Shown here piece after piece: positions 6,067 through 57,374 of a DNA stretch of 64,000 nt. The first letter of the stretch is position 1; every line of letters begins with the position of its first letter. The notes under the pieces were generated by a model, which was not told the DNA's origin, searched no databases, and saw only the letters and a list, made by a program, of their open reading frames with translations. Origin of the DNA: a virus (lineage: Duplodnaviria > Heunggongvirae > Uroviricota > Caudoviricetes); the IMG/VR virus record IMGVR_UViG_3300018475_000095. One strand, written 5' to 3'. The position numbers were made by a program, and so were the translations under genes.

Positions 6067-7764
6067 CTAATTATTATTGTTTTTTATAGCTAAATCTTGA
6101 ATGTATTTTCTCAATATATCGATATTTTCTTCTGATATTTCATCATCTATAACATATTCAGATACTGCTTTTTTATCATTTACAATTTCATCGACCCTTT
6201 CATCAATTGTATCTTTTACAATCAATCTATATATAAATACGGTGTCTTTTGTACCTATTCTATGAATTCGATCCTCTGCTTGACTTGTTACTGCATATGT
6301 CCATGGGGTATCTATAAAGATCATATATGAAGCTGAATTTAACGTTATACCAGTTCCACATTTTTGAGATGTAGCTAAAAAGATCTTATGATCTGGATTA
6401 TTTTGAAAATTATCTATATTGTGGCTGATTGTCGCATCATCTATATCCCCAGTATTAACAGTAGGTTTAAGATCTTTTAACATATTTTCTAACTCATATA
6501 TTGCATCTTTAAATACAGAAAATATAACTACTTTATGACCTGATTCGACTATTTCTCTAGCTAATTCGCATGCCCGCTTTAATTTTGCACTTACGATTGG
6601 TAAAGTAGTTAAGGTGCTTGGGGTAGCAGTCGCTTGTCGTAATCTGCTAACCATTGCTAACAAGGCTGTGTTTGTTATCTCTACTTTATCTACCGAATCA
6701 CATATACCTGCTTCAAGATCTGAATAAAATTTTAACTGGTCTTCATTCATTTCTATATATTCAGATATTATTACTTTTGGAGGGAGATTTAACTCATCAG
6801 ACTTTTTTCTCCTTATAGAAAATTTATTTAACTGATCTTTAAGTATATCTAAGTTTCTATAACCAATAAGCGTATTATTAAATGGTCCAGCATATCTAGA
6901 GTAGTAATACTTAAATGTAGAAAAAGGGGATCTTTCAACTCCTATCCATTTTAAAGGGACATAAGCATCCGCAGGATTATTCGTTAATAAAGTTCCAGTT
7001 AACCCTACTTTATAATCAGCTTCTAATTTTAATAAATTATTACCTTGATCAGTATTAACACTTTTGCAAGCATGTATCTCATCTACAACAATCATATCAA
7101 AAGATGTCCTAGATTTTTTAAATGCAGATATTACTTCATCTTTTCTTAAAGTTTCAATATTAGTTATAACAAAAAATTCTTCAATATCAGATAATATATG
7201 TTCGCATCTAGCTTCAACTGATCCAATAACTGATTTTCCTTTTCTATTTATTCTTTCACCTAATATAGTTGCGCTTAGATTACTATGTTTTTTAATTTCT
7301 TTCTTCCAATTATATTTTAAATTATTTATACCACATATTATTAGACAATGCTTTATCTTACCTTGCTTATAGAGTTCTTCTGCTATATGGATTATTTGAT
7401 AAGTCTTACCTAATCCTGCTTCGTCTAATAACAGCCATGATTTATGATTGAGCCCGTATTGTATTCCTTCGAGCTGATAAGCATAAGGTTTCATGTAGTA
7501 ATTAGATGTATCTAGTTCATATGTAGATTCAGTAATTTCATTTTCATACAACAATTTCAAATCAATAGTATCTATAGATGTCAACTTATCTAAGACTGCT
7601 TGCAATTCAGTTAATGGAATTTCTCATTCTTTTGATTTTTTATCATATACTTTAAGATCTAATGTTTTCATATTTTTAACGATATCCGGATGATAGTCAA
7701 ATGATAAAAATAAAGATGTCAATCCAGGTATTTTTTTAGTTGTTCTCTCTTCTATGTAAATCAT
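6067..7764 (-). CDS. SNF2-family helicase with N-terminal HARP-like segment; in-frame TGA (codon 47) read as Trp
   Basis: ATG at 7764 right after upstream stop; frame open except TGA at 7624-7626 in YDKKSKE*EIP; LLLDEAGLGKT, VVDEIH, QAEDRIHRIG motifs. Confidence 0.9.
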
Positions 7765-8167: not shown

Positions 8168-8890
8168 TTATATCTCACCATCATCTATTATAAAATCTTT
8201 ATTTAACCAATCTTCAAACAAAACTGTAGAACTTGAATCATTTGTACTTAAACTACTATTTATTTTTTGAGGTGTCACTTCTATAAAATCTAAATTATAT
8301 CTTATTTTATAATTAAGTTGGGTTGCAACTTTATTAGACTGACTATCAGTACTATCGGAAGATGGGTTTAATAATGCTATAGGTAAAACATAATAAGGAT
8401 TACCACCATCTTCTCCTTCAAGTATACGAGGACTAAGGTTCGAGTTATCTGTTATTTCACTTATTTCTACTGATAATCCATCATAATAGCTAATTGTTTC
8501 ATCATCTAAAGTTGTAAGAGTATCATTACCTACTAATTCTGAAATTTTTATATTGTTTATCTCTTTATCCTTACTATATTGTAATCTTAACTCTACTATA
8601 TATGAGTTACCACTTTGTATGCCATTAGTATATACTTGTGTGTAGTTATTAATTAACTTTATAAAATAACCACCTATATTACATTCCCCTAGTTTTATAG
8701 TAACCTCATCGCTACCGCTGACTGTGTTATGACCATAAATCACACCCAAACCATTTATTATAAAAGATTGCTCATCAGTTAGTCTGTTTATCAAATTAGT
8801 TATATTATATTCAAGATTTAATCTACCTAAAAAATCATCTCTATTTGCTGCTGGATATATCTTTATATCACTACTTTTAAAATTACCCAT
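8168..8890 (-). CDS. Baseplate/tail-associated structural protein
   Basis: Last gene of baseplate operon; 240 aa; position only. Confidence 0.45.
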   Translation of the reverse strand: MGNFKSSDIKIYPAANRDDFLGRLNLEYNITNLINRLTDEQSFIINGLGVIYGHNTVSGSDEVTIKLGECNIGGYFIKLINNYTQVYTNGIQSGNSYIVELRLQYSKDKEINNIKISELVGNDTLTTLDDETISYYDGLSVEISEITDNSNLSPRILEGEDGGNPYYVLPIALLNPSSDSTDSQSNKVATQLNYKIRYNLDFIEVTPQKINSSLSTNDSSSTVLFEDWLNKDFIIDDGEI

Positions 8891-27966: not shown

Positions 27967-28028
27967 TCAAGATAATTGGATTTGAACCAATATCTCAATC
28001 ATTGTGTTTTACCTTAAACTATATCTTC
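27967..28028 (-). ncRNA. tRNA-like element lacking the anticodon loop
   Basis: GAAGATA/TATCTTG acceptor stem (6 of 7 pairs), T8A9, D arm GTTT-AAGGTA-AAAC, T arm ATTGG-TTCAAAT-CCAAT; only CAATGATTG where a 17-nt anticodon arm belongs; no encoded CCA. Confidence 0.7.
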
Positions 28029-34090: not shown

Positions 34091-37000
34091 TTAACCTCAG
34101 AATATAATCCCATCTCTTAATGCAGATGGCTTATAAGGTGTAGCTGAACCAAATCCAAAATCTATTGGTTTAAACGCATTAGAATTAGATTGGTTATTTT
34201 CTTTAAATTTAGCATTATTTTCTTGTTTATTTTCAATAGAACTGCTTTTATCTAATATTTTTTGCTTTTGTTTTGATAGAGGATCTAGTAAATTTTTTAT
34301 CTCTTCTTCAAATTCTATATTTATTTGTTTTTTAGTATAACTATCATTTGCTGTAGCATTACTTACTTGTAATGTTGTATCTAAACTTTCTCCGAAATCA
34401 AAAGCAAATTGTTCTGCATTTTTAGATGCATTAAATAATGCTCCACATACAGCATCGCACACGTCTTTTCGTCCACCATCAGGGTGATCTACTTTTCCAG
34501 TATTTATATTTCTTTCTAGATCTATAATTTCATCAATTAAAGTTTTAGAATCATATATTTCTAGTCTTTTCTCATAAATTGTAGATTTAAAATTTTGATA
34601 AGGTTTACATATATGATCTGAATCTACTCTATCAACAGATAAAACACTATACTTATATCCTTTAGCAAGTAATGCTTGACCTGTATCATAACTTTGGAAA
34701 GTATCTGTCGTGATACCTTGAATATTAAATCCTTGTTCTTTTAACCAATAAATAAAATTTCTATTCTTTTCAAAAGATATTTGATATCCTTTTGGTGCTT
34801 TAATCGAAACTGAAAAAGCAAGAGTATAAAATAAATCATTTGATTGATTTTCAGTTGTACTTAGTTTTTTACCTTTAATCCAAACACCTGCAATACCAGT
34901 CATATCTCCGCTTACTGACATATCTAGATGAATAAACAAAGGTCTACTCTTTAATCTTTTATTTACTTTACTTAAATCAAATAAATCATAGTATTGTATC
35001 TTATCTTCTTGACTATTTCCTATTTCTAATATATCTTTAATAAATGGATTTTGTAATTCAAGATTTTTAATTTCTTGTACTGCAACACCAGAAATATATT
35101 TACTAATTTCACTTGATGATATACCAGCAAAGTCACATAATGCTCTTTCAATATCATCTAAAAAGTTTGATTTAAAATCTATAGGAACTTCAATTATTTT
35201 ATAGCCTTTATCTCTCCATATATCTACATCATCATTAGTAGGTATAACTTGAGACATCAAGAACTTATTTCCTAAAGCTACATTAAATGTTTCTTCTTTA
35301 TAAGTACCTTTTGGCTTAACTTTCCAAACAGGTTCATCAACAATTAAAACATTTTCTTTCTCAGATTTTAATTTCTTTTTAATATGCTCTTCAAGGAATG
35401 ATTTTTCACTTCGTTTCGAAGATGCTAAAGCAAGTAAAGTAGGATTTATACCTTTATAAATAAACCTTGTTTTCATACCCCCAATAGCGGTATCAATCAT
35501 ATTAATTGCTTTTTCTTTTTGTTTATCTATATCTTGATTTCTCATAAATGAAATTTCATCAAAGAAAGCAAAGAAAATAGGCAAACCAATCAAGTCATCT
35601 GCTTGGGAACCAATTATTATATTGATATAATCAGGTGGAACCCATTTTAAATTAGTCCTACCTTCCATAGTTCCTCTTGCCATAAACCATGGTGAAAGTT
35701 TTACTGTGTTTTGAAATTTACTAATACCAATTTCTTCTGCTAAAGCTAATTTAATATTCATAAAAGCAAAACATATTTTTTCAGTTGGTTTTAAGTGAAA
35801 AAATTCAATTGGGTTTTTCAAGCACATTATCCTGTACATTAGATAACAAGCAACAGCAACAGCGATTTCGGAATTATGTGTAACTATACAATTATCAGTT
35901 AAATACAAATGATCATCACTATTAATCATTATGCATTGACATTCAACTTTTCTAGACAATTCAATTGATTCTATAGCTCTACTAGGATTTAAAGAATTAG
36001 GATTAATTCTAGATAGTTTTCGTGATAATTTAAATGGTTTTATTTCTTTAGGTAATTTTATAGAGATAGTATAGCTTGTATTACATTCTATAACTTTCCC
36101 ATCTTTTTTATATTTACCTGTAACTTCTTTGTATTGAGCTACACCACCTAATGATTGTACTAGATAAATAAAATTGTCACAAAGTTGTGAACTGATTGTA
36201 TTAAATTGGATTGTTGATCCATTTTTTGTTATTGTACCATCAGTATCCATTAATCCTTGTAATAATTCAATTCTATCTTCGACTGAGCTATGTAAATAAA
36301 TATTTGGTATAAATTTATCAGCTGAAGATTTTATCAGATTTAAATCATGTAATGCTTCAACAAAAGGATTTGGTTCGGCGACAGGATTACCTTTAGGACC
36401 AACAGTAAATTTTTTTACTTTTTGAGAAAATATATATCCATACTTACATGATGGTAATGGGCTTATTTTTATGTTATCAAATGTTTTATCTAATTTATTT
36501 GATATATAATCGATTAATTCTTTATCTGCACTTGTTAATGAACATGAGTTTCTTCGGATACAGCCATCGCCTAAAATTACCCCTAATATATATGGATCAA
36601 TTAGTAGTTCTTTTTTCTCAAACTCAATTGGCTTAGTTACAGGTATATAATAAAGATGTTCTTTATATTTACCTTGTTTTACCTTAATTAATGGTTTGTC
36701 GAATAACTCTTGCAAATGAATAGTTTTCTTATACTTATAATTATTTTTTGGCAAAATTGTCCAAAGATGTTCTTTACAACATTCAGTAGTTGTTTTATCT
36801 GTAAAAGTTATTTTATAAACATCTTTAACACCTTGCGGAAAAATATGAGTGACGATATGTGGCTTACCATCCGCTCCAATTACATTCATACCAGGTTTAA
36901 TTGATCCCATAGGAATAAACCCATCAGATGTCATAACTTTACTATCTAATGGTTGTGCTTTACCTAAACCTCTTGCTCCTGATTCAATAAATGTATTTAC

Positions 37001-37276
37001 ACTAGTTGAAATATTATCCGGAAATAATTTTTTTAATTTTTCTCTTCAAAAAGGATATAATTTAGATTTACCTTCAGCATCATGTCAAGCATGTCCTAAA
37101 TAATTATTGTCATCTAAGAATGTTTCTATGTCTACGGGTATCTCGTTATAATCTGCGTATTTTAAATCTTCAAATACTTTAGAGGTACCTTCTTTTGAAA
37201 ATTCTTCTAAAATACTTAAAGCTAATTTTTTCTCTTCTTCTGAAAGATTATTTAATTCATCGAAATTATAAGTCAT
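34091..37276 (-). CDS. Terminase large subunit, 1061 aa precursor with intein; three in-frame TGA read as Trp
   Basis: One frame from ATG 37276 (AAGGAG) to TAA 34091 apart from TGA at 37085, 37046 and 34097; Walker A GARGLGK|S, FFDEIS Walker B, HLDMS and KDVCDAVCG nuclease motifs. Confidence 0.9.
35873..36958 (-). mobile_element. Class-3-type intein with LAGLIDADG homing endonuclease (362 aa)
   Basis: Starts Ala (GLGK|AQPLDSKV), ends VTHN|S; block B HLW, block F CQCI, block G T (WCT triad); LGVILGDG and LQGLMDTDG LAGLIDADG motifs. Confidence 0.9.
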
Positions 37277-37301: not shown

Positions 37302-38081
37302 TTAGTTATCAAATTTAAACATTTCACGTTCTCTAGGAGATAATTCAGACATTAAATCTTCAATATCTAATAAATCTTCTAAGTCATCTTTTTCTCTATC
37401 TGGATCTATATTTATTAGGTCATCTTCTATTTCATAACTTACATTATCTACTTGAATTATTATAGAAGGTTTCTTAGTTAATATAATATCCAAATCTTCA
37501 TAATCATAGTAATCTTTTAATTCTCTGTCTAAATGGTATCTTATTTCTTCGATAGCATCTTCATAACTGTCAAAAGTAAATTCCAATGCTCTATTAGTTA
37601 ATCTATTCAAACCTCTGAATATAGCTTGTTGTTTTTTATATTCCTTACCTTCAAGAGTTTCTCTTACAACTAGCACTGGATATTTCTTATCCCAACCAAA
37701 TAATTCTCCAAGAGTAAACATTCTATGTCTACCTTCTTGCATATTTTCAGCATAATTTAAAACTGTTATAGGAAATTTTTTCTTTTGTTTTAAGATAACA
37801 TTTTTTAAATGTTCAAGATCTTCTGATTCACGTTGAATTTGTTTATATTGCTTTTCAAAAGTGCTATCGAATATTTCTGCACATGCTTCAAAATATTCTC
37901 TAGGGCTAAGCATTTCAATAGAAGAAGTTGTTTTAAAATATTTATTTGTATTTTCTGGATCTCGTAAATAATCTGTATACTTTGACATTTCACTTTTTGT
38001 TACATCAAAATATTGATTATTTTCTATGTTACCAGTTCCATAATCATTTAAGTAAATTCTATTTTCTTTTAAAAATTTCAT
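37302..38081 (-). CDS. Protein with ParB/Srx-like motif
   Basis: PITVL...QEGRHR...YPVLVV ParB-N-type signature. Confidence 0.5.
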   Translation of the reverse strand: MKFLKENRIYLNDYGTGNIENNQYFDVTKSEMSKYTDYLRDPENTNKYFKTTSSIEMLSPREYFEACAEIFDSTFEKQYKQIQRESEDLEHLKNVILKQKKKFPITVLNYAENMQEGRHRMFTLGELFGWDKKYPVLVVRETLEGKEYKKQQAIFRGLNRLTNRALEFTFDSYEDAIEEIRYHLDRELKDYYDYEDLDIILTKKPSIIIQVDNVSYEIEDDLINIDPDREKDDLEDLLDIEDLMSELSPREREMFKFDN

Positions 38082-39385
38082 TAAAATACCTCTGTAATAA
38101 GAGCATCGTTTAATCTATCATTAAAAATGCTTTCGTCAAATTCCATTCAACTGTATTGAGGTTCTCTAAAATAGAAATCTTCTGCTGTATAATTAACAAA
38201 AGCTTCTTCTGTTGAACAACCTTTTATATAATCATATAGATCTAAAATATCTTTGTCTGTTAAATAGATTTCATAATGTTGAGTTTCTTGATTTGCTTTA
38301 TACTTAAAAGGTATAGCCTTATCTAAAGCTTTATTAAAATCCTTAACACATGCTTCTTGACTACCTACATTATATGCATCATTTACAGCCATATTGATAG
38401 CATCATGTAAAGCATCATTTTCATTTAATTCATTAATTAAATTATCTAAAGAAATATTATGATCTTTTAGTATTTCTTTATTTGTGTCATTTAAGTAAGT
38501 GGTGATAAAATCTAATTCTTCCGCTGAATATCAATAAGGTGTTCAATCTCATTGTTCATAAATATCACCGGTCATACAAGAAAGTAAAAAATCTTCTGAC
38601 CAAGTTCTGTTAGAAAGCCCTTCAGCTAATTTACTCATTCTAACATCTAAAATAGAATAATTATCATCGAAAGGTTTCAACCCTTCTAATTTCTCTCTGA
38701 TTAAAGGTTTATAAAAATTATATAAATTTTCATTACCTGAAGTTACAAAGAAAGATTTTACATCGATAGGATCATCATCCATATCCATAAAAGAACCTGA
38801 CTCAAAATGAAATTGATATTTATCATTAGTTCTTTTATTTATGTTTATATACAAAGGTCCTTGATCAGTATACATATCATAATAATAGTCACTTGAAGTT
38901 GATGCAGTACACCAACTTGTATCTCTACCTAACTTACAACTAGCTTCATAAGTTTTAGGAATATATACTTTTCAATTAGAGTCTTCATAAACTAATTCAG
39001 CGTCTTTTTCAATATCAGAAGCTCTTACAGCTTTTTGAGTCTGTCTTAATTCTTGTCTTTGAGATAGTTCTTTATATGAATTTTTATCATTTAGATAGTT
39101 ATCTAAATCTTCAAGAGATTTAAAAGTCATTATATCTTTATTTTTAAGATTTTTCTTATTCTCTTCAAATCTTTTTAATATATCGGTAACATGCCCAATA
39201 TTATCTAGTTTGTTTTTATTAGCAAGACTTAAAATCCATTTAGCATAAGTTCCTGCAATATCACCACCTTTATATGTAGGATCTAGTTGAATTAATGCTA
39301 AATATTTTTTATCATCAATTTTTGGAAAATATTTTTTTAAATCTCATATATCTTCCAATAATAATTCTTCTCTTAAAAATCGCAT
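38081..39385 (-). CDS. 434-aa phage protein hidden by six in-frame TGA (Trp); WCT-motif, PcfJ-like (tentative)
   Basis: ATG 39385 after AGAGGA; TGA at 39344, 38972, 38549, 38543, 38531 and 38147 all in frame; ends TAA overlapping next ATG (TAATG); joins track ORFs 38549..38875 and 38147..38392. Confidence 0.8.
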
Positions 39386-40449
39386 TGTTTAAAATCCTCT
39401 ACAAAAGTATCATACACCTCAGTTAATTTATAACTTTTATCAAATATAATTTGTTTATAATTATTTGCTTTACAATCAATTAAAATTCTAACTTTTTGTT
39501 TCTTATTATTTTTATTAACTATATAATATTTATGAATAATAATTCTACTTCCTAAATATGTTCTAGTTTTAATATCTAAATTATAATCAATAATTAAATC
39601 TTTATAAGCAGATTTCTTTTTATTTAATATATACAGTATTTTTTCTTTAATTTCTTCTAACTTTACTTCTTTAGGTTGCTTTCTATCTGATATCTTTGTT
39701 AATATCTTTTTTAATATAATTGCTACTATTAAAATTAAAATATAAACTATTAGTGCAATTGGAGGACCATTTCCCTCTTTACCAAAGAATATGTCTAACC
39801 CAGGTATTCTCATAAATAATAACATGCAATATAAACCTATGAATTTACATATTGCATTTACTATAACATAAAATGAAAAATTCATTTTAATTGAACCTAC
39901 TACTAATGATATTAAATCATCTGGGAATATAGGAAATAAAACAGTAGCACCATATATCCATTTACCTGTCTTACTATTTAATTTTTTACTCCATAATTCA
40001 TAATCTTCATTAGAACCTGCTACCCATTTTATAGCTGGTTTACCGAATGTTCTTCCTATCCAGTATGATGCTATAGCACCTGTTATAGTGGCAGAGCATA
40101 CAAATACAACAAAAAATAAAGTAGTTAGACTAAATAAATTTGCTATCTCATTTCCATTAGCAACTAAATTAGGTATTTGATTACAAGCTACCAAAATAGG
40201 TAATGCTGGAATTGGAATTATAGCTACTTGAGCAAACATAATCACTCAGATTATTGCATACACCAACCAACCAGACTTACCTTCTATAAGACCAGAACCA
40301 AAAAATTCTTCTATTGCAGGTATCTCAAATATACCTTCTGATATAGCCATAAATGCCATGCATATTATAATAACTCTTAAAGCTTTCTGCCACTGCTCTA
40401 TAGTTACTTTGTTTAATAATTTTTTTATTATATTATCTTCTCTTTTCAT
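39373..40449 (-). CDS. DedA/VTT (TVP38/TMEM64-like) membrane protein; in-frame TGA at 40246
   Basis: Track ORFs 40246..40449 and 39373..40245 are one frame joined by TGA (YAII*VIMFAQV); GAIASYWIGR.FG and LFPIFPDDLI motifs. Confidence 0.8.
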
Positions 40450-54102: not shown

Positions 54103-54351
54103 CTACTCCTTAATTTCTTCGAATATGTCGTCAAAGCCTTCTTTCTCAATTTTAGTTTCTAGAGAGAAGTTAGGTTTGAATCCATAACCCATAAACATAT
54201 TATTAACGTATTCGTTACTCAAGTACCACTTATTGTTTGTATAAATAAAAGTACCCTCATTATCAATTAATGTTAATTCATTACCATTTGCTAATATATT
54301 ATTAGATATATTTTTAAAAGGTATTTTTATTTCGTCTTTTACCTTGAACAT
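54103..54351 (-). CDS. 82-aa hypothetical protein overlapping 3' end of DGR RT
   Basis: ATG 54351 after AAGGAG; overlaps RT by 38 nt. Confidence 0.5.
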   Translation of the reverse strand: MFKVKDEIKIPFKNISNNILANGNELTLIDNEGTFIYTNNKWYLSNEYVNNMFMGYGFKPNFSLETKIEKEGFDDIFEEIKE

Positions 54352-55327
54352 GTATATACTCCTTTATATAACCTTCAAATGAACCTTTATAATTGGTGTA
54401 TTGGTTGCTATTTATCCCATATTTTGATCTAAGGTATTTCTCTTTTCTAAATAAGTTCTTTCGAGTTTTATATGAATTTTTATTTGTTATTTTACCATTA
54501 GATTGTAAACGGAATTGAATTTTTAACCAAGTAAATTGTTTTAATTTACTGATAGTTGTCTTATTTTTATTTATAATTATTTTTAATTTATTACAAACTT
54601 CGTATATTACTCGCAGACAGTTTTTTAATTCTTCTTTACTACTGCATATCAGATAACAATCATCTACATATCTACCATAAAATTTAATATGTAATTTTTC
54701 TTTGATTAAATGATCTAACTCATTAACATAGAACAAAGAATTTATCTGCGAAATTTCGCTTCCTAATGCTATTCCTTTCTCTCTACTGGCTTTCTCTATA
54801 AAATGTTTATACAGATTATATATCTTATCGTCTTTTATATAATTTCTTGCTTTACTTAATAGAATATTATGATCTATATTATCAAAATATTTGCTAAAAT
54901 CTATCTTTAATATATAACCTTCATTAGTATGATATCTTTTATAGTATTTATTTAAATGTACAAATAATCTATCTAAAGTAAATATATAGCCTTTACCATT
55001 TATTGTAGCTCCATTATCATATATTAAGGATCTTCCGAGTAGATTGTTTAAGTAATATCTACATAAGCATTTTTGTACAATTCTTTCACTAATATGTGCA
55101 GCTTTTATATTTCTAGTTCTTCCTCTGCAGCTTTTAGTGAATTCAAAGTATCCAGGTGATTTGTAACTCCCAGCATGCAATTGTCTAAATATTCTATTTA
55201 CTAATCTATGCTTTTGAATTTCAAAATTTTGGATGCTTTGCTTTCATCTAACATTTCTAAAGCATAGATTAGCACAAACCAATAAATTTTTATATGTAAA
55301 AACTTCTTTAAAAGTTTTATTTTTCAA
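54314..55327 (-). CDS. DGR reverse transcriptase, 337 aa; in-frame TGA (Trp) at 55244
   Basis: TTG start 5 nt after AGGAGA; NVR*KQSIQ; AAHISERIVQK, YDNGA..GKG, LKIDFSKYFDNIDH, LGSEISQ, YGRYVDD motifs. Confidence 0.93.
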
Positions 55328-55481
55328 TATAATCTCCTATGTAATATTAGTTACTCCTAATCTTGAGTAAAATATATTAGGAGGTTTTTATTTTTAGCTT
55401 TTAATTGCTATGGAAGTGCGGTTCCTTTTATTAATTTAGCCGGTTTCAATAAATATCTACTATGTCTGGCATTATTTAAGT

Positions 55482-55588
55482 AAAATCAGAGAGGAACATA
55501 ATTACTATTCGTCATATTGTTGTTGTTCGAATAACCATTGTTGTTCCAATTACAGAAATTGTTCGAAGAAGAGTTAACGTAAGGGTAT
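55482..55588 (-). repeat. DGR template repeat (TR), 107 bp
   Basis: Aligns gaplessly to 56072..56178 (offset 590); 13 AAY codons in the VR frame; 16 mismatches, all at TR adenines. Confidence 0.97.
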
Positions 55589-55607
55589 AATCAACCGCAC
55601 ACCAATG

Positions 55608-56003
55608 TTATTTTGAAACTCGTTTCTTATCCGAGTTTATAACACCTTTAATTAATTTTTCTAGGTAGTCAGTTTTTTCAAATATCTTATTAAGCATTCC
55701 ATCTGTGATAGTATTATTATACTCCAATATGCATTCAAATTCAATAGAGAATAAATTTAAAGTGTGTAGAGCTTCTGTCAATAATTCTCTTCGTTTTTCA
55801 AAACTTGTTGTCAAATCACATTGATTAGCAAGTACGCAACATTGCATAACTCTATCTATTAATTTAAATGTTGATTGTAGCCCATAGAAAGTATATTTTT
55901 TAGAGAATTTATTAACAATAGTGCTTGCTACTAATTTTCTAAGCATAACACTTTCATAAACATATTGAGTTTTACTTAATGTTCTCATATACGATGGAAC
56001 CAT
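55608..56003 (-). CDS. avd: Accessory variability determinant (Avd-like four-helix bundle), 131 aa
   Basis: ATG 56003 after AAAGGA; between VR and TR; ANQCDL...KRRELLTEAL..L...LIKGVINSDKKR pattern. Confidence 0.85.
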   Translation of the reverse strand: MVPSYMRTLSKTQYVYESVMLRKLVASTIVNKFSKKYTFYGLQSTFKLIDRVMQCCVLANQCDLTTSFEKRRELLTEALHTLNLFSIEFECILEYNNTITDGMLNKIFEKTDYLEKLIKGVINSDKKRVSK

Positions 56004-56028: not shown

Positions 56029-56050
56029 CTGTTCACCTTTCGGCGAACAG
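56029..56050 (-). other. DGR target-recognition hairpin with GAAA loop downstream of VR/IMH
   Basis: CTGTTCGCC-GAAA-GGTGAACAG, 13 nt past the target stop codon. Confidence 0.85.
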
Positions 56051-56063
56051 ATTATTTAGATTA

Positions 56064-57374
56064 TTAGATTGAAAAGCAGAGAGGAACAGAAAAACTAGTC
56101 GTCATATTGGTGTTGGACGAATAACCATGGATGTACCAAGTACAGAAATAGTTCGAAGAAGAGGGAACGTAAGGGGATCTAAGCCATCTAGCACTACTTG
56201 AGAATCTAAATAATATCTCGTTATAATTCTTAAATGCTTTAAATGTTTCTCCTTCAAGCCAGAATTTAGAGTAATCATCAAATCTCTTAGTGTCACCAAA
56301 TATATTGCTATCACTAGGTAGCCACATATAATCTTGAGTTGTTAATATTAAATCATCTGTGCTCACTGTAACCCCAGCACCACAACCTTGCCATGTTTTG
56401 ATATTTTTTAATCTTGGGCTAACTGTTCCTAATTGTTCTTTTAATGAAGCTAAGAACACACCATCTTCAGCAATTTCTGTTTTCTTGTAATATTTTGTTT
56501 CATTATTGTACTCATCTGGTAATAATACAGGAACAAATGTAGAAGCTTCTATTTCGTATTTATAATATGTACCATTTGTTGAATCAGTAACTGTCCAATC
56601 ATATATGTATTGAGTAGCGCCTGCTGGTAATGAATTTGTTCTTGGTATGCATCCCATCCAAGATATACCATTACTATTTGTTCCAGATGTATTAAACATT
56701 TTATATGTGCTATTGAAATTATAATAACAAAATATTAAGTTATTTTCTTCATCTATATGCACTAAATAAGCTCTGCTATATTCACTTGTTGCTCCTTTAG
56801 CCATAAAATTAGTTTGCATGTATTCAAATCCATCAAATTCAAATACATATTCTCCAAATCCTGCTTCAGAAATTTCCTGCAATTCTTCCCATGTATATTT
56901 TAAAGATTTATAAGTTGGTATGTAATTACCTATTGCAGATTTAGTTACTTCATTATAGTATTTCATAGTGCATTTGTATTGACCAACACCTTGTACATTG
57001 ATACTATTTTGCCATTTTTCTTCAGAATCTCTGGTTGCTTTTATTATATACTCACCATCATCAGTAACTGAAAACGCTACCACATAAGCTTCATCAGCAT
57101 TTGTTAGTGTTTGTAGTAAACTATCATCTTTGTACAAAGTAAAAGTTGTATTAGGTAGGTCTGCTGCTGTAATTATTCTATCCCCAGTTGCTTTTAATTC
57201 CGTAGTATTTATGATAGTTTGACCTGTTATATTGTTTATATTACCAATAATAGCAGGAATACTTGAACTATCTGGAATAGTTATACCTTTTGCTTTTAAA
57301 TTCTTAACGCCATCTTGTCTTGCAGTTTCTAAAATTGATGTAACTTTAAAAAGTTGACTTGCTGTCATTGTCAT
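56064..57374 (-). CDS. DGR target: putative receptor-binding protein with CLec/DUF6273-like C-terminal domain
   Basis: C-terminal VR; MWLPSDSNIFG...RWLRSP...VPLCFSI; start MTMTASQ after GGAGG. Confidence 0.9.
   Translation of the reverse strand: MTMTASQLFKVTSILETARQDGVKNLKAKGITIPDSSSIPAIIGNINNITGQTIINTTELKATGDRIITAADLPNTTFTLYKDDSLLQTLTNADEAYVVAFSVTDDGEYIIKATRDSEEKWQNSINVQGVGQYKCTMKYYNEVTKSAIGNYIPTYKSLKYTWEELQEISEAGFGEYVFEFDGFEYMQTNFMAKGATSEYSRAYLVHIDEENNLIFCYYNFNSTYKMFNTSGTNSNGISWMGCIPRTNSLPAGATQYIYDWTVTDSTNGTYYKYEIEASTFVPVLLPDEYNNETKYYKKTEIAEDGVFLASLKEQLGTVSPRLKNIKTWQGCGAGVTVSTDDLILTTQDYMWLPSDSNIFGDTKRFDDYSKFWLEGETFKAFKNYNEILFRFSSSARWLRSPYVPSSSNYFCTWYIHGYSSNTNMTTSFSVPLCFSI
56072..56178 (-). 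repeat. DGR variable repeat (VR)
   Basis: Encodes SPYVPSSSNYFCTWYIHGYSSNTNMTTSFSVPLCF at the C-terminus of the target. Confidence 0.97.

What the first reader, a model, noticed from the sequence alone, without database searches (positions are those of the whole stretch)
55244..55488. The DGR itself depends on UGA readthrough: RT has an internal TGA and TR has TGA in the VR frame
The only SD-linked RT start (TTG 55327, AGGAGA 5 nt upstream) hits TGA at codon 28 (NVR*KQSIQ), so under code 11 no full RT is made. The TR also reads CTC TGA TTT where the VR reads CTC TGC TTT (Cys). If that A is copied unchanged, the target gains a stop under code 11 but a Trp under code 4, giving a W/C toggle at the end of the lectin-like fold. 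This suggests a DGR adapted to a recoded translation system. Caveat: the site may lie in the IMH*/IMH region and never be transferred.
Basis: partly seen in the sequence, partly recalled or inferred. Interest (0 to 1): 0.72.

Follow-up and report, generated by a model that had tools for sequence, protein, structure and literature searches.

The report
Ordinary DGR in UGA-recoding phage
A gut phage that reads the stop codon UGA as tryptophan has one such codon in the enzyme of its hypermutation cassette, so the enzyme needs readthrough like ten other phage genes, but the proposed Trp/Cys switch in the target protein does not occur.

Summary
Both TGAs are real. RT codon 28 sits at a Trp found in 116/116 homologues, in the N-terminal extension, so full RT needs UGA read as Trp. 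This is genome-wide: terminase, helicase and other genes carry such TGAs (22 TGA vs 314 TGG in 116 kb), and the genome encodes a UCA-anticodon tRNA with Trp identity bases. The DGR is active: VR-only alleles occur in near-identical genomes that keep the TGA.

The W/C toggle is not supported. The TR adenine is a fixed TR/VR end mismatch. VR has C there in 58/64 related DGRs (39/43 in MAGs), against about 8% at mutable adenines. The Cys is unchanged in 38/38 target sequences, and DGRs where TGA is a true stop show the same TR TGA. Spacer pairing places this A at the predicted cDNA start, outside the transferred stretch.

Recoded stops in DGR RTs are published (amber, Zeta crAss-like phages), and this scan noted one in another genome. 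A selected gate on hypermutation is possible but weakly supported.

The parts
56064..57374 (-). DGR target gene, 436 aa, VR at the C-terminus (homologues carry DUF6273); no in-frame TGA, 9 TGG
56072..56178 (-). Variable repeat (VR)
   Evidence: 16 mismatches to TR, all at TR adenines; alleles P0122, P0123, L086
56076..56078 (-). Cys433 codon TGC in the constant IMH end; C56076 is the fixed partner of TR A55486
   Evidence: Cys in 38/38 target sequences; C in 58/64 and 39/43 related VRs
56029..56050 (-). DNA hairpin downstream of VR (IMH-type cruciform)
   Evidence: z -3.8
55608..56003 (-). Avd-like accessory gene, 131 aa
   Evidence: position between VR and TR; ESM Atlas feature hit 0.91 to a cluster with bAvd in 16% of members; structure hit to the IVP helical bundle, TM 0.78; Pfam and PHROGs silent
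55593..55600 (-). Upstream strand of the predicted cPRT-Stop duplex (pairs with 55416-55423)
   Evidence: exact 8-bp complementarity read; lead from e1-5435667; analogy
55482..55588 (-). Template repeat (TR)
55486..55488 (-). TR TGA; A55486 is the IMH* end adenine and predicted first templated base (BPP-1 TR117 position)
   Evidence: BPP-1 geometry
55424..55430 (-). Predicted primer strand of the spacer: 55430-55426 pairs with TR 55481-55485; priming A55426 followed by GG
   Evidence: weak in the window alone (5 bp), supported by locus-specific pairing across 40 DGRs
55416..55423 (-). Spacer strand of the predicted cPRT-Stop duplex, two nt after the priming A as in BPP-1
54314..55327 (-). DGR reverse transcriptase, 337 aa with UGA=Trp (GxxxSQ and YVDD motifs)
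55244..55246 (-). In-frame TGA at RT codon 28 = invariant Trp of the VxWK motif in the N-terminal extension
34091..37276 (-). Terminase large subunit with intein; TGA at codons 64, 77 and 1060 (context: essential gene read through)
   Evidence: Trp in 12/22, 22/22 and 17/18 relatives
6067..7764 (-). SNF2 helicase, TGA at codon 47 inside the HARP domain (context)
38081..40449 (-). 434-aa gene with six TGA and VTT/DedA gene with one TGA (context)

Best explanation
This is a standard, active phage DGR (target-avd-TR-RT) in a 154-kb gut phage that reads UGA as Trp sparsely across its genome, most likely through its own UCA tRNA. A TGG-to-TGA change at the invariant RT Trp28 is tolerated, as in about ten other genes, so RT is made only when UGA is decoded. 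Shown: the codon, its conservation, the tRNA gene and VR diversification. Inferred: the tRNA is the decoder, and RT output is lower or delayed. The TR TGA has nothing to do with translation, since TR acts as RNA. Its A is the conserved TR-end adenine. The bases after it pair with the spacer, whose A55426 is predicted to prime cDNA, making A55486 the first templated base. cDNA joins VR upstream of it, so VR keeps C and Cys433. The pairing is inferred from covariation and BPP-1 geometry; non-transfer is shown by population data.
For: W28 in 116/116 homologues. The N-terminal segment aligns with bRT from residue 10, beside template-contacting Lys29. Terminase TGAs lie at conserved Trp. UCA tRNA with A1-U72, G2-C71, G3-C70, G73 at L097:15312-15405, linked to the window by overlapping loci at 99.98-100% identity. 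VR-only alleles: P0122 has 10 changes, all compatible with TR adenines, on a contig that still has the truncated RT call; L086 differs at two TR-A positions. End adenine gives C in 58/64 VRs vs 174/2019 at internal adenines, and C in 27/29 at synonymous Gly/Arg sites; 39/43 in GTDB MAGs. TR TGA with VR TGC occurs where TGA is a real stop (L313, L220, L257) and in L021, which has no in-frame TGA in 21 kb. Own vs cross-locus TR:spacer pairing 4.53 vs 2.35 of 6 bp, 0/5000 permutations. The BPP-1 transfer boundary (107-112) lies upstream of the cDNA start (117).
Against: No expression or proteomic data. Host and its code unknown. Two VRs (L009, L147) carry A at the end site, so rare transfer or mutation happens. 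The related loci are not phylogenetically independent, so the P values overstate confidence. The window's own template:primer duplex is only 5 bp (shuffle p 0.55). Only contigs, not reads, were available.
Confidence: 0.82

Rival explanations
1. Selected gate: the TGA at W28 is kept so that hypermutation switches on only once the phage suppressor tRNA is available.
For: TGA is only 7% of Trp codons while other A/G codon pairs are 81-89% A-ending, so decoding is costly or limited. The first Trp is TGA in 8 of 11 TGA genes, expected 4.2, p 0.017. A relative with 52% identical RT (L019) has TGA at the same codon.
Against: The first-Trp test is post hoc and some N-terminal extensions are unverified; the relative-position test is not significant (p 0.07). 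L019 uses TGA for 64% of Trp, so sharing is expected. Close relative L021 and 78/78 MAG RTs use TGG. The tree does not resolve shared descent of the TGA.
Confidence: 0.15
2. The host itself uses code 4 (Mycoplasmatales or recoded Eggerthellaceae), so UGA is an ordinary Trp codon and nothing depends on the phage tRNA.
For: No clear TGA stop among the window's genes; TGA also occurs in replication and recombination genes. Gut code-4 lineages exist (PMC13695967).
Against: Strong TGA avoidance at 28% GC; the phage carries its own UCA tRNA; relatives range from no TGA to 64% TGA; nearest DGR RTs lie in Clostridia MAGs (indirect).
Confidence: 0.13
3. One reading: TR A55486 is copied or mutated into VR, giving Trp/Cys variation that only a code-4 phage tolerates.
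For: The mismatch is at a TR adenine; two related VRs show A at this site.
Against: Cys in 38/38, including 15/15 alleles of a heavily recoded relative whose target has 9 TGA. Never G at the site in either VR set. Same TR TGA in code-11 loci.
Confidence: 0.03
4. The RT is a nonsense-inactivated pseudogene, or a short RT from 55180 does the job.
For: Automatic gene callers report only 288 aa.
Against: Frame otherwise intact. VR alleles arise in genomes differing by 1-3 bases per 11 kb that keep the TGA. No SD at 55180. The lost segment is the Avd- and template-binding extension.
Confidence: 0.03

Closest known systems
Bordetella phage BPP-1 DGR (mtd-avd-TR-brt; PDB 8ub7; Handa et al. 10.1101/344556 and 10.1101/2023.10.23.563531; Guo et al. 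PMC3240598)
   Same: Gene order, A-specific TR/VR differences, constant IMH end, post-VR hairpin, best sequence and fold match of the RT, predicted primer A + 2-nt linker + cPRT-Stop duplex.
   Different: Predicted first templated base is A, not G; IMH is AT-rich; DUF6273-type target; RT has an in-frame UGA.
[quoted passage not shown]
   Same: DGR RT interrupted by a reassigned stop codon in a phage with suppressor tRNA; seven RT genes reported.
   Different: Amber/Gln in crAss-like phages there; opal/Trp at one invariant residue in a Gp23-capsid phage here.
TGA-to-Trp alternatively coded gut phages, Agate and Jade clades (Borges et al. 10.1101/2021.08.26.457843)
   Same: Low GC, in-frame TGA at Trp, suppressor tRNA, TGA depleted as stop, relatives with and without recoding, large genome.
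   Different: TGA is sparse (7%), absent from capsid, tail and fibre genes, present in terminase, helicase, RecU and RT; clade membership not tested.
Bacillota phage DGRs with DUF6273 targets (PMC11792537)
   Same: VR at the C-terminus of DUF6273 in homologues of the target.
   Different: The window's own allele does not reach the Pfam threshold; lytic-type recoded phage rather than a prophage.

Membership tests
DGR | DGR-class RT with GxxxSQ and YxDD motifs | tested here: met
   best PDB match bRT by sequence (5e-31) and by fold
DGR | TR/VR pair differing at TR adenines | tested here: met
   16/16 mismatches
DGR | Accessory avd gene | tested here: inconclusive
   right size and place; Atlas lead (bAvd in 16% of cluster, IVP-like fold), no Pfam hit
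DGR | IMH/IMH* constant end and downstream hairpin | tested here: met
DGR | C-type lectin or Ig fold carrying the VR | tested here: inconclusive
   model pLDDT 51, unusable; DUF6273 in homologues
DGR | Ongoing VR diversification | tested here: met
   three VR alleles in this phage; hypervariable VRs in two relatives
DGR | Cis-primed mutagenic reverse transcription | not testable with these tools
   RNA architecture predicted only
TGA-recoded (code 4) gut phages | In-frame TGA at conserved Trp positions | tested here: met
   RT W28; terminase W77 and W1060
TGA-recoded (code 4) gut phages | Phage-encoded UGA suppressor tRNA | tested here: met
   L097:15311-15407, anticodon TCA, Trp identity bases; function untested
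TGA-recoded (code 4) gut phages | Recoding enriched in structural and lysis genes | tested here: inconclusive
   terminase yes; capsid, tail and fibre genes none; helicase and RecU yes
TGA-recoded (code 4) gut phages | Host uses the standard code | not testable with these tools
   no host link found
Agate clade | Terminase phylogeny with the reference genomes | not tested

The most novel reading that the evidence does not exclude
The UGA at the invariant first Trp of the RT is a selected translational gate that ties receptor hypermutation to the phage's suppressor tRNA, as part of a genome-wide habit of recoding the first Trp of chosen genes.
Probability: 0.15. Interest if true: 0.65.

Novelty: new member of a known kind. 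Interest (0 to 1): 0.3.

Why it matters
It is a clean case of an active DGR whose RT cannot be made without stop-codon readthrough. Standard gene calling truncates such RTs, so they look dead. The VR alleles also give in-vivo evidence that UGA readthrough works in this phage. A useful by-product is a testable map of the priming site for a large group of Bacillota-type DGRs: the TR-end adenine as first templated base and a spacer A followed by GG as primer. This explains the A/C mismatch near the VR end and warns against counting it as a mutable site. The paper I read reports conserved cPRT-Stop and Avd-binding elements but not this mapping; my literature search was limited. If gating were shown, it would link two phage strategies, recoding and hypermutation.

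Tried and rejected
No whole genome held; ENA/NCBI loci could not be searched as handles; an exact DNA search of metagenome contigs found nothing. The genome was walked by protein look-ups instead: 116 of 154 kb seen, so RF1 or TrpRS genes in the remaining 38 kb are not excluded. A GGQ motif scan of the 116 kb showed no release-factor-like gene.

Sequencing runs: no RNA holder listed. Only contigs were available, and no variant letters were seen in four runs. One run's contigs break across the VR (56040-56171), which proves nothing.

The AlphaFold model of the target C-terminus was too poor to search. The target alignment found no viral contigs. No close cultured phage (capsid at most 33% identical). 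The promoter scan was at chance level. The RT tree could not resolve shared origin of the TGA. tRNA clusters of five IMG/VR relatives showed no UCA tRNA in the loci scanned (incomplete).

The anticodon-less tRNA-like element at 27967-28028 was considered as the decoder and rejected: no UCA, no Trp identity bases. Automatic VR-frame calls were wrong for some loci and were re-read for the TGA loci.

Full report
OBSERVATION. On the minus strand lie a 436-aa target gene (57374-56064), an avd-like gene (56003-55608), a TR (55588-55482) and an RT (55327-54314). TR and VR align over 107 nt with 16 mismatches, all at TR adenines. The RT starts at a TTG with an SD and meets TGA at codon 28; code 11 leaves a 288-aa ORF from 55180 without SD. 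TR has TGA where VR has TGC.

THE RT TGA IS TRP. In 120 homologues the column is W in all 116 that cover it. The profile aligns with BPP-1 bRT from residue 7; W28 falls next to bRT Lys29. In the cryo-EM work this N-terminal extension binds Avd, and Lys29 contacts the first template base (10.1101/2023.10.23.563531). The model of the full-length protein is confident through this segment and its top fold matches are bRT. The short ORF therefore lacks a needed part (inference).

THE CODE IS GENOME-WIDE. The window belongs to a 154.4-kb phage from animal faecal metagenomes. In-frame TGAs interrupt the terminase at conserved Trp positions (22/22 and 17/18 relatives), the HARP domain of the helicase, a VTT protein and a 434-aa gene. 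Over 116 kb I count 22 TGA and 314 TGG; three of the 22 are doubtful terminal or start calls. Other A/G codon pairs are 81-89% A-ending, so TGA is strongly avoided. Relatives range from no in-frame TGA (L021) to 64% TGA (L019). This fits the alternatively coded gut phages of Borges et al.. At the genome rate, a two-Trp gene carries a TGA 13% of the time, so the RT codon needs no special cause.

THE DGR WORKS. The target cluster holds three VR alleles. P0122 differs at 10 residues, all in the VR and all reachable from TR adenines, on a contig that still has the truncated RT call. L086 differs from the window at two adjacent TR-A positions and one base elsewhere in 11 kb. Retrohoming thus occurred in genomes carrying the TGA, which argues against a pseudogene.

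THE TOGGLE FAILS. Cys433 is unchanged in 38/38 target sequences, including 15 hypervariable alleles of the heavily recoded relative, where Trp would be expected in about three quarters if the site were mutable and unselected. Selection could explain that, so I tested DNA. Among related DGRs with the same TR end, VR has C in 58/64, never G, whereas internal adenines give C in 8.6%. At synonymous Gly/Arg third positions C appears in 27/29. GTDB MAGs repeat this at 39/43, partly overlapping the first set. TR TGA with VR TGC is found where TGA is a real, start-coupled stop (L313, L220, L257) and in L021. The nearest changed adenine is always 12-22 nt upstream. No codon in the transferable TR can mutate to TGA, TGG or a stop. 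Wu et al. describe 3-7 constant residues encoded by IMH (PMC5758913). Two VRs do show A, so the barrier is not absolute. The loci are related, so the P values are upper bounds on confidence.

WHY THE A IS THERE. In 48 TR ends, the bases after this A pair best with a spacer stretch usually ending in A followed by G. Forty of 44 distinct TR ends have an A-GG site at +38 to +79 (background 42%), and own-locus pairing is 4.53 of 6 bp against 2.35 across loci (0/5000 permutations). In BPP-1, TR U118 pairs with priming Sp A56, G57 follows, TR117 is copied first, and the cPRT-Stop duplex starts at Sp59. In the window the same spacing gives A55426, GG, then an 8-bp duplex 55423-55416 with 55600-55593 (lead e1-5435667). 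A55486 is thus the predicted first templated base. In BPP-1 transfer begins 5-10 nt upstream of that base (PMC3240598). This is inference, but it explains the fixed mismatch without reference to the genetic code.

GATING. TGA rarity, a first-Trp bias (8/11, p 0.017, post hoc) and the same codon in L019 leave room for a selected gate. The relative-position test is not significant, L019 is mostly TGA anyway, and L021 and 78 MAG RTs use TGG. I give it 0.15. The dependence on readthrough is real either way; that it is selected is not shown.

KNOWN AND NEW. It is a DGR by the features testable here, and it works like a code-4 gut phage; Agate membership and host code were not tested. Amber codons in seven DGR RT genes are published (PMC12386605), and this scan noted an amber-recoded RT in another genome (e1-1599749). 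I found no report of an opal case, but that is a small step. Verdict: observation confirmed, interpretation half right, new member of a known kind, interest 0.30.

Noticed in passing
window 27967-28028 (-): tRNA-like element (Rfam 48 bits, missed by ARAGORN) with the anticodon arm cut to 9 nt, between head genes; not a UGA decoder. None found in seven relatives' capsid regions.
   Followed up: partly
L097:15312-15405: The UCA tRNA has a long extra arm whose loop carries CCA, mimicking a Trp anticodon arm; already noted as e1-1839485.
   Followed up: partly
window 56089-56176: The VR's 15 internal changes are 9 C, 6 T and no G, whereas G is about half of all changes in related DGRs; L257 also has none. 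Selection or an RT with a different error spectrum.
   Followed up: no
window and L092-L097 (116 kb): The first Trp codon is TGA in 8 of 11 TGA-carrying genes (expected 4.2; post hoc p 0.017).
   Followed up: partly
L009/L010 RT position 85; L136 RT position 19: Other DGR RTs carry an in-frame TAG or TAA; L009 also has A at the VR end site.
   Followed up: no
L045: A capsid relative is TAG-recoded (ORF coverage 0.59 under code 11, 0.90 with TAG read through), so the wider group holds codes 11, 4 and 15.
   Followed up: no
L019:7603-9288: In the heavily recoded relative the DGR target has 9 of 10 Trp as TGA while some neighbouring genes have none; patchy recoding.
   Followed up: no
window 38081-39385: 434-aa gene without family hit holds six TGA against three TGG.
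   Followed up: no
window 34091-37276: Terminase carries a LAGLIDADG intein and two TGAs upstream of it.
   Followed up: no
L097:8091-8209 and 8412-8545: Two over-long tRNA matches missed by ARAGORN, probably intron-containing.
   Followed up: no
ENA ERZ27248314 copy of L094:8022-9893: The SbcC-like gene is called in two pieces in one assembly.
   Followed up: no
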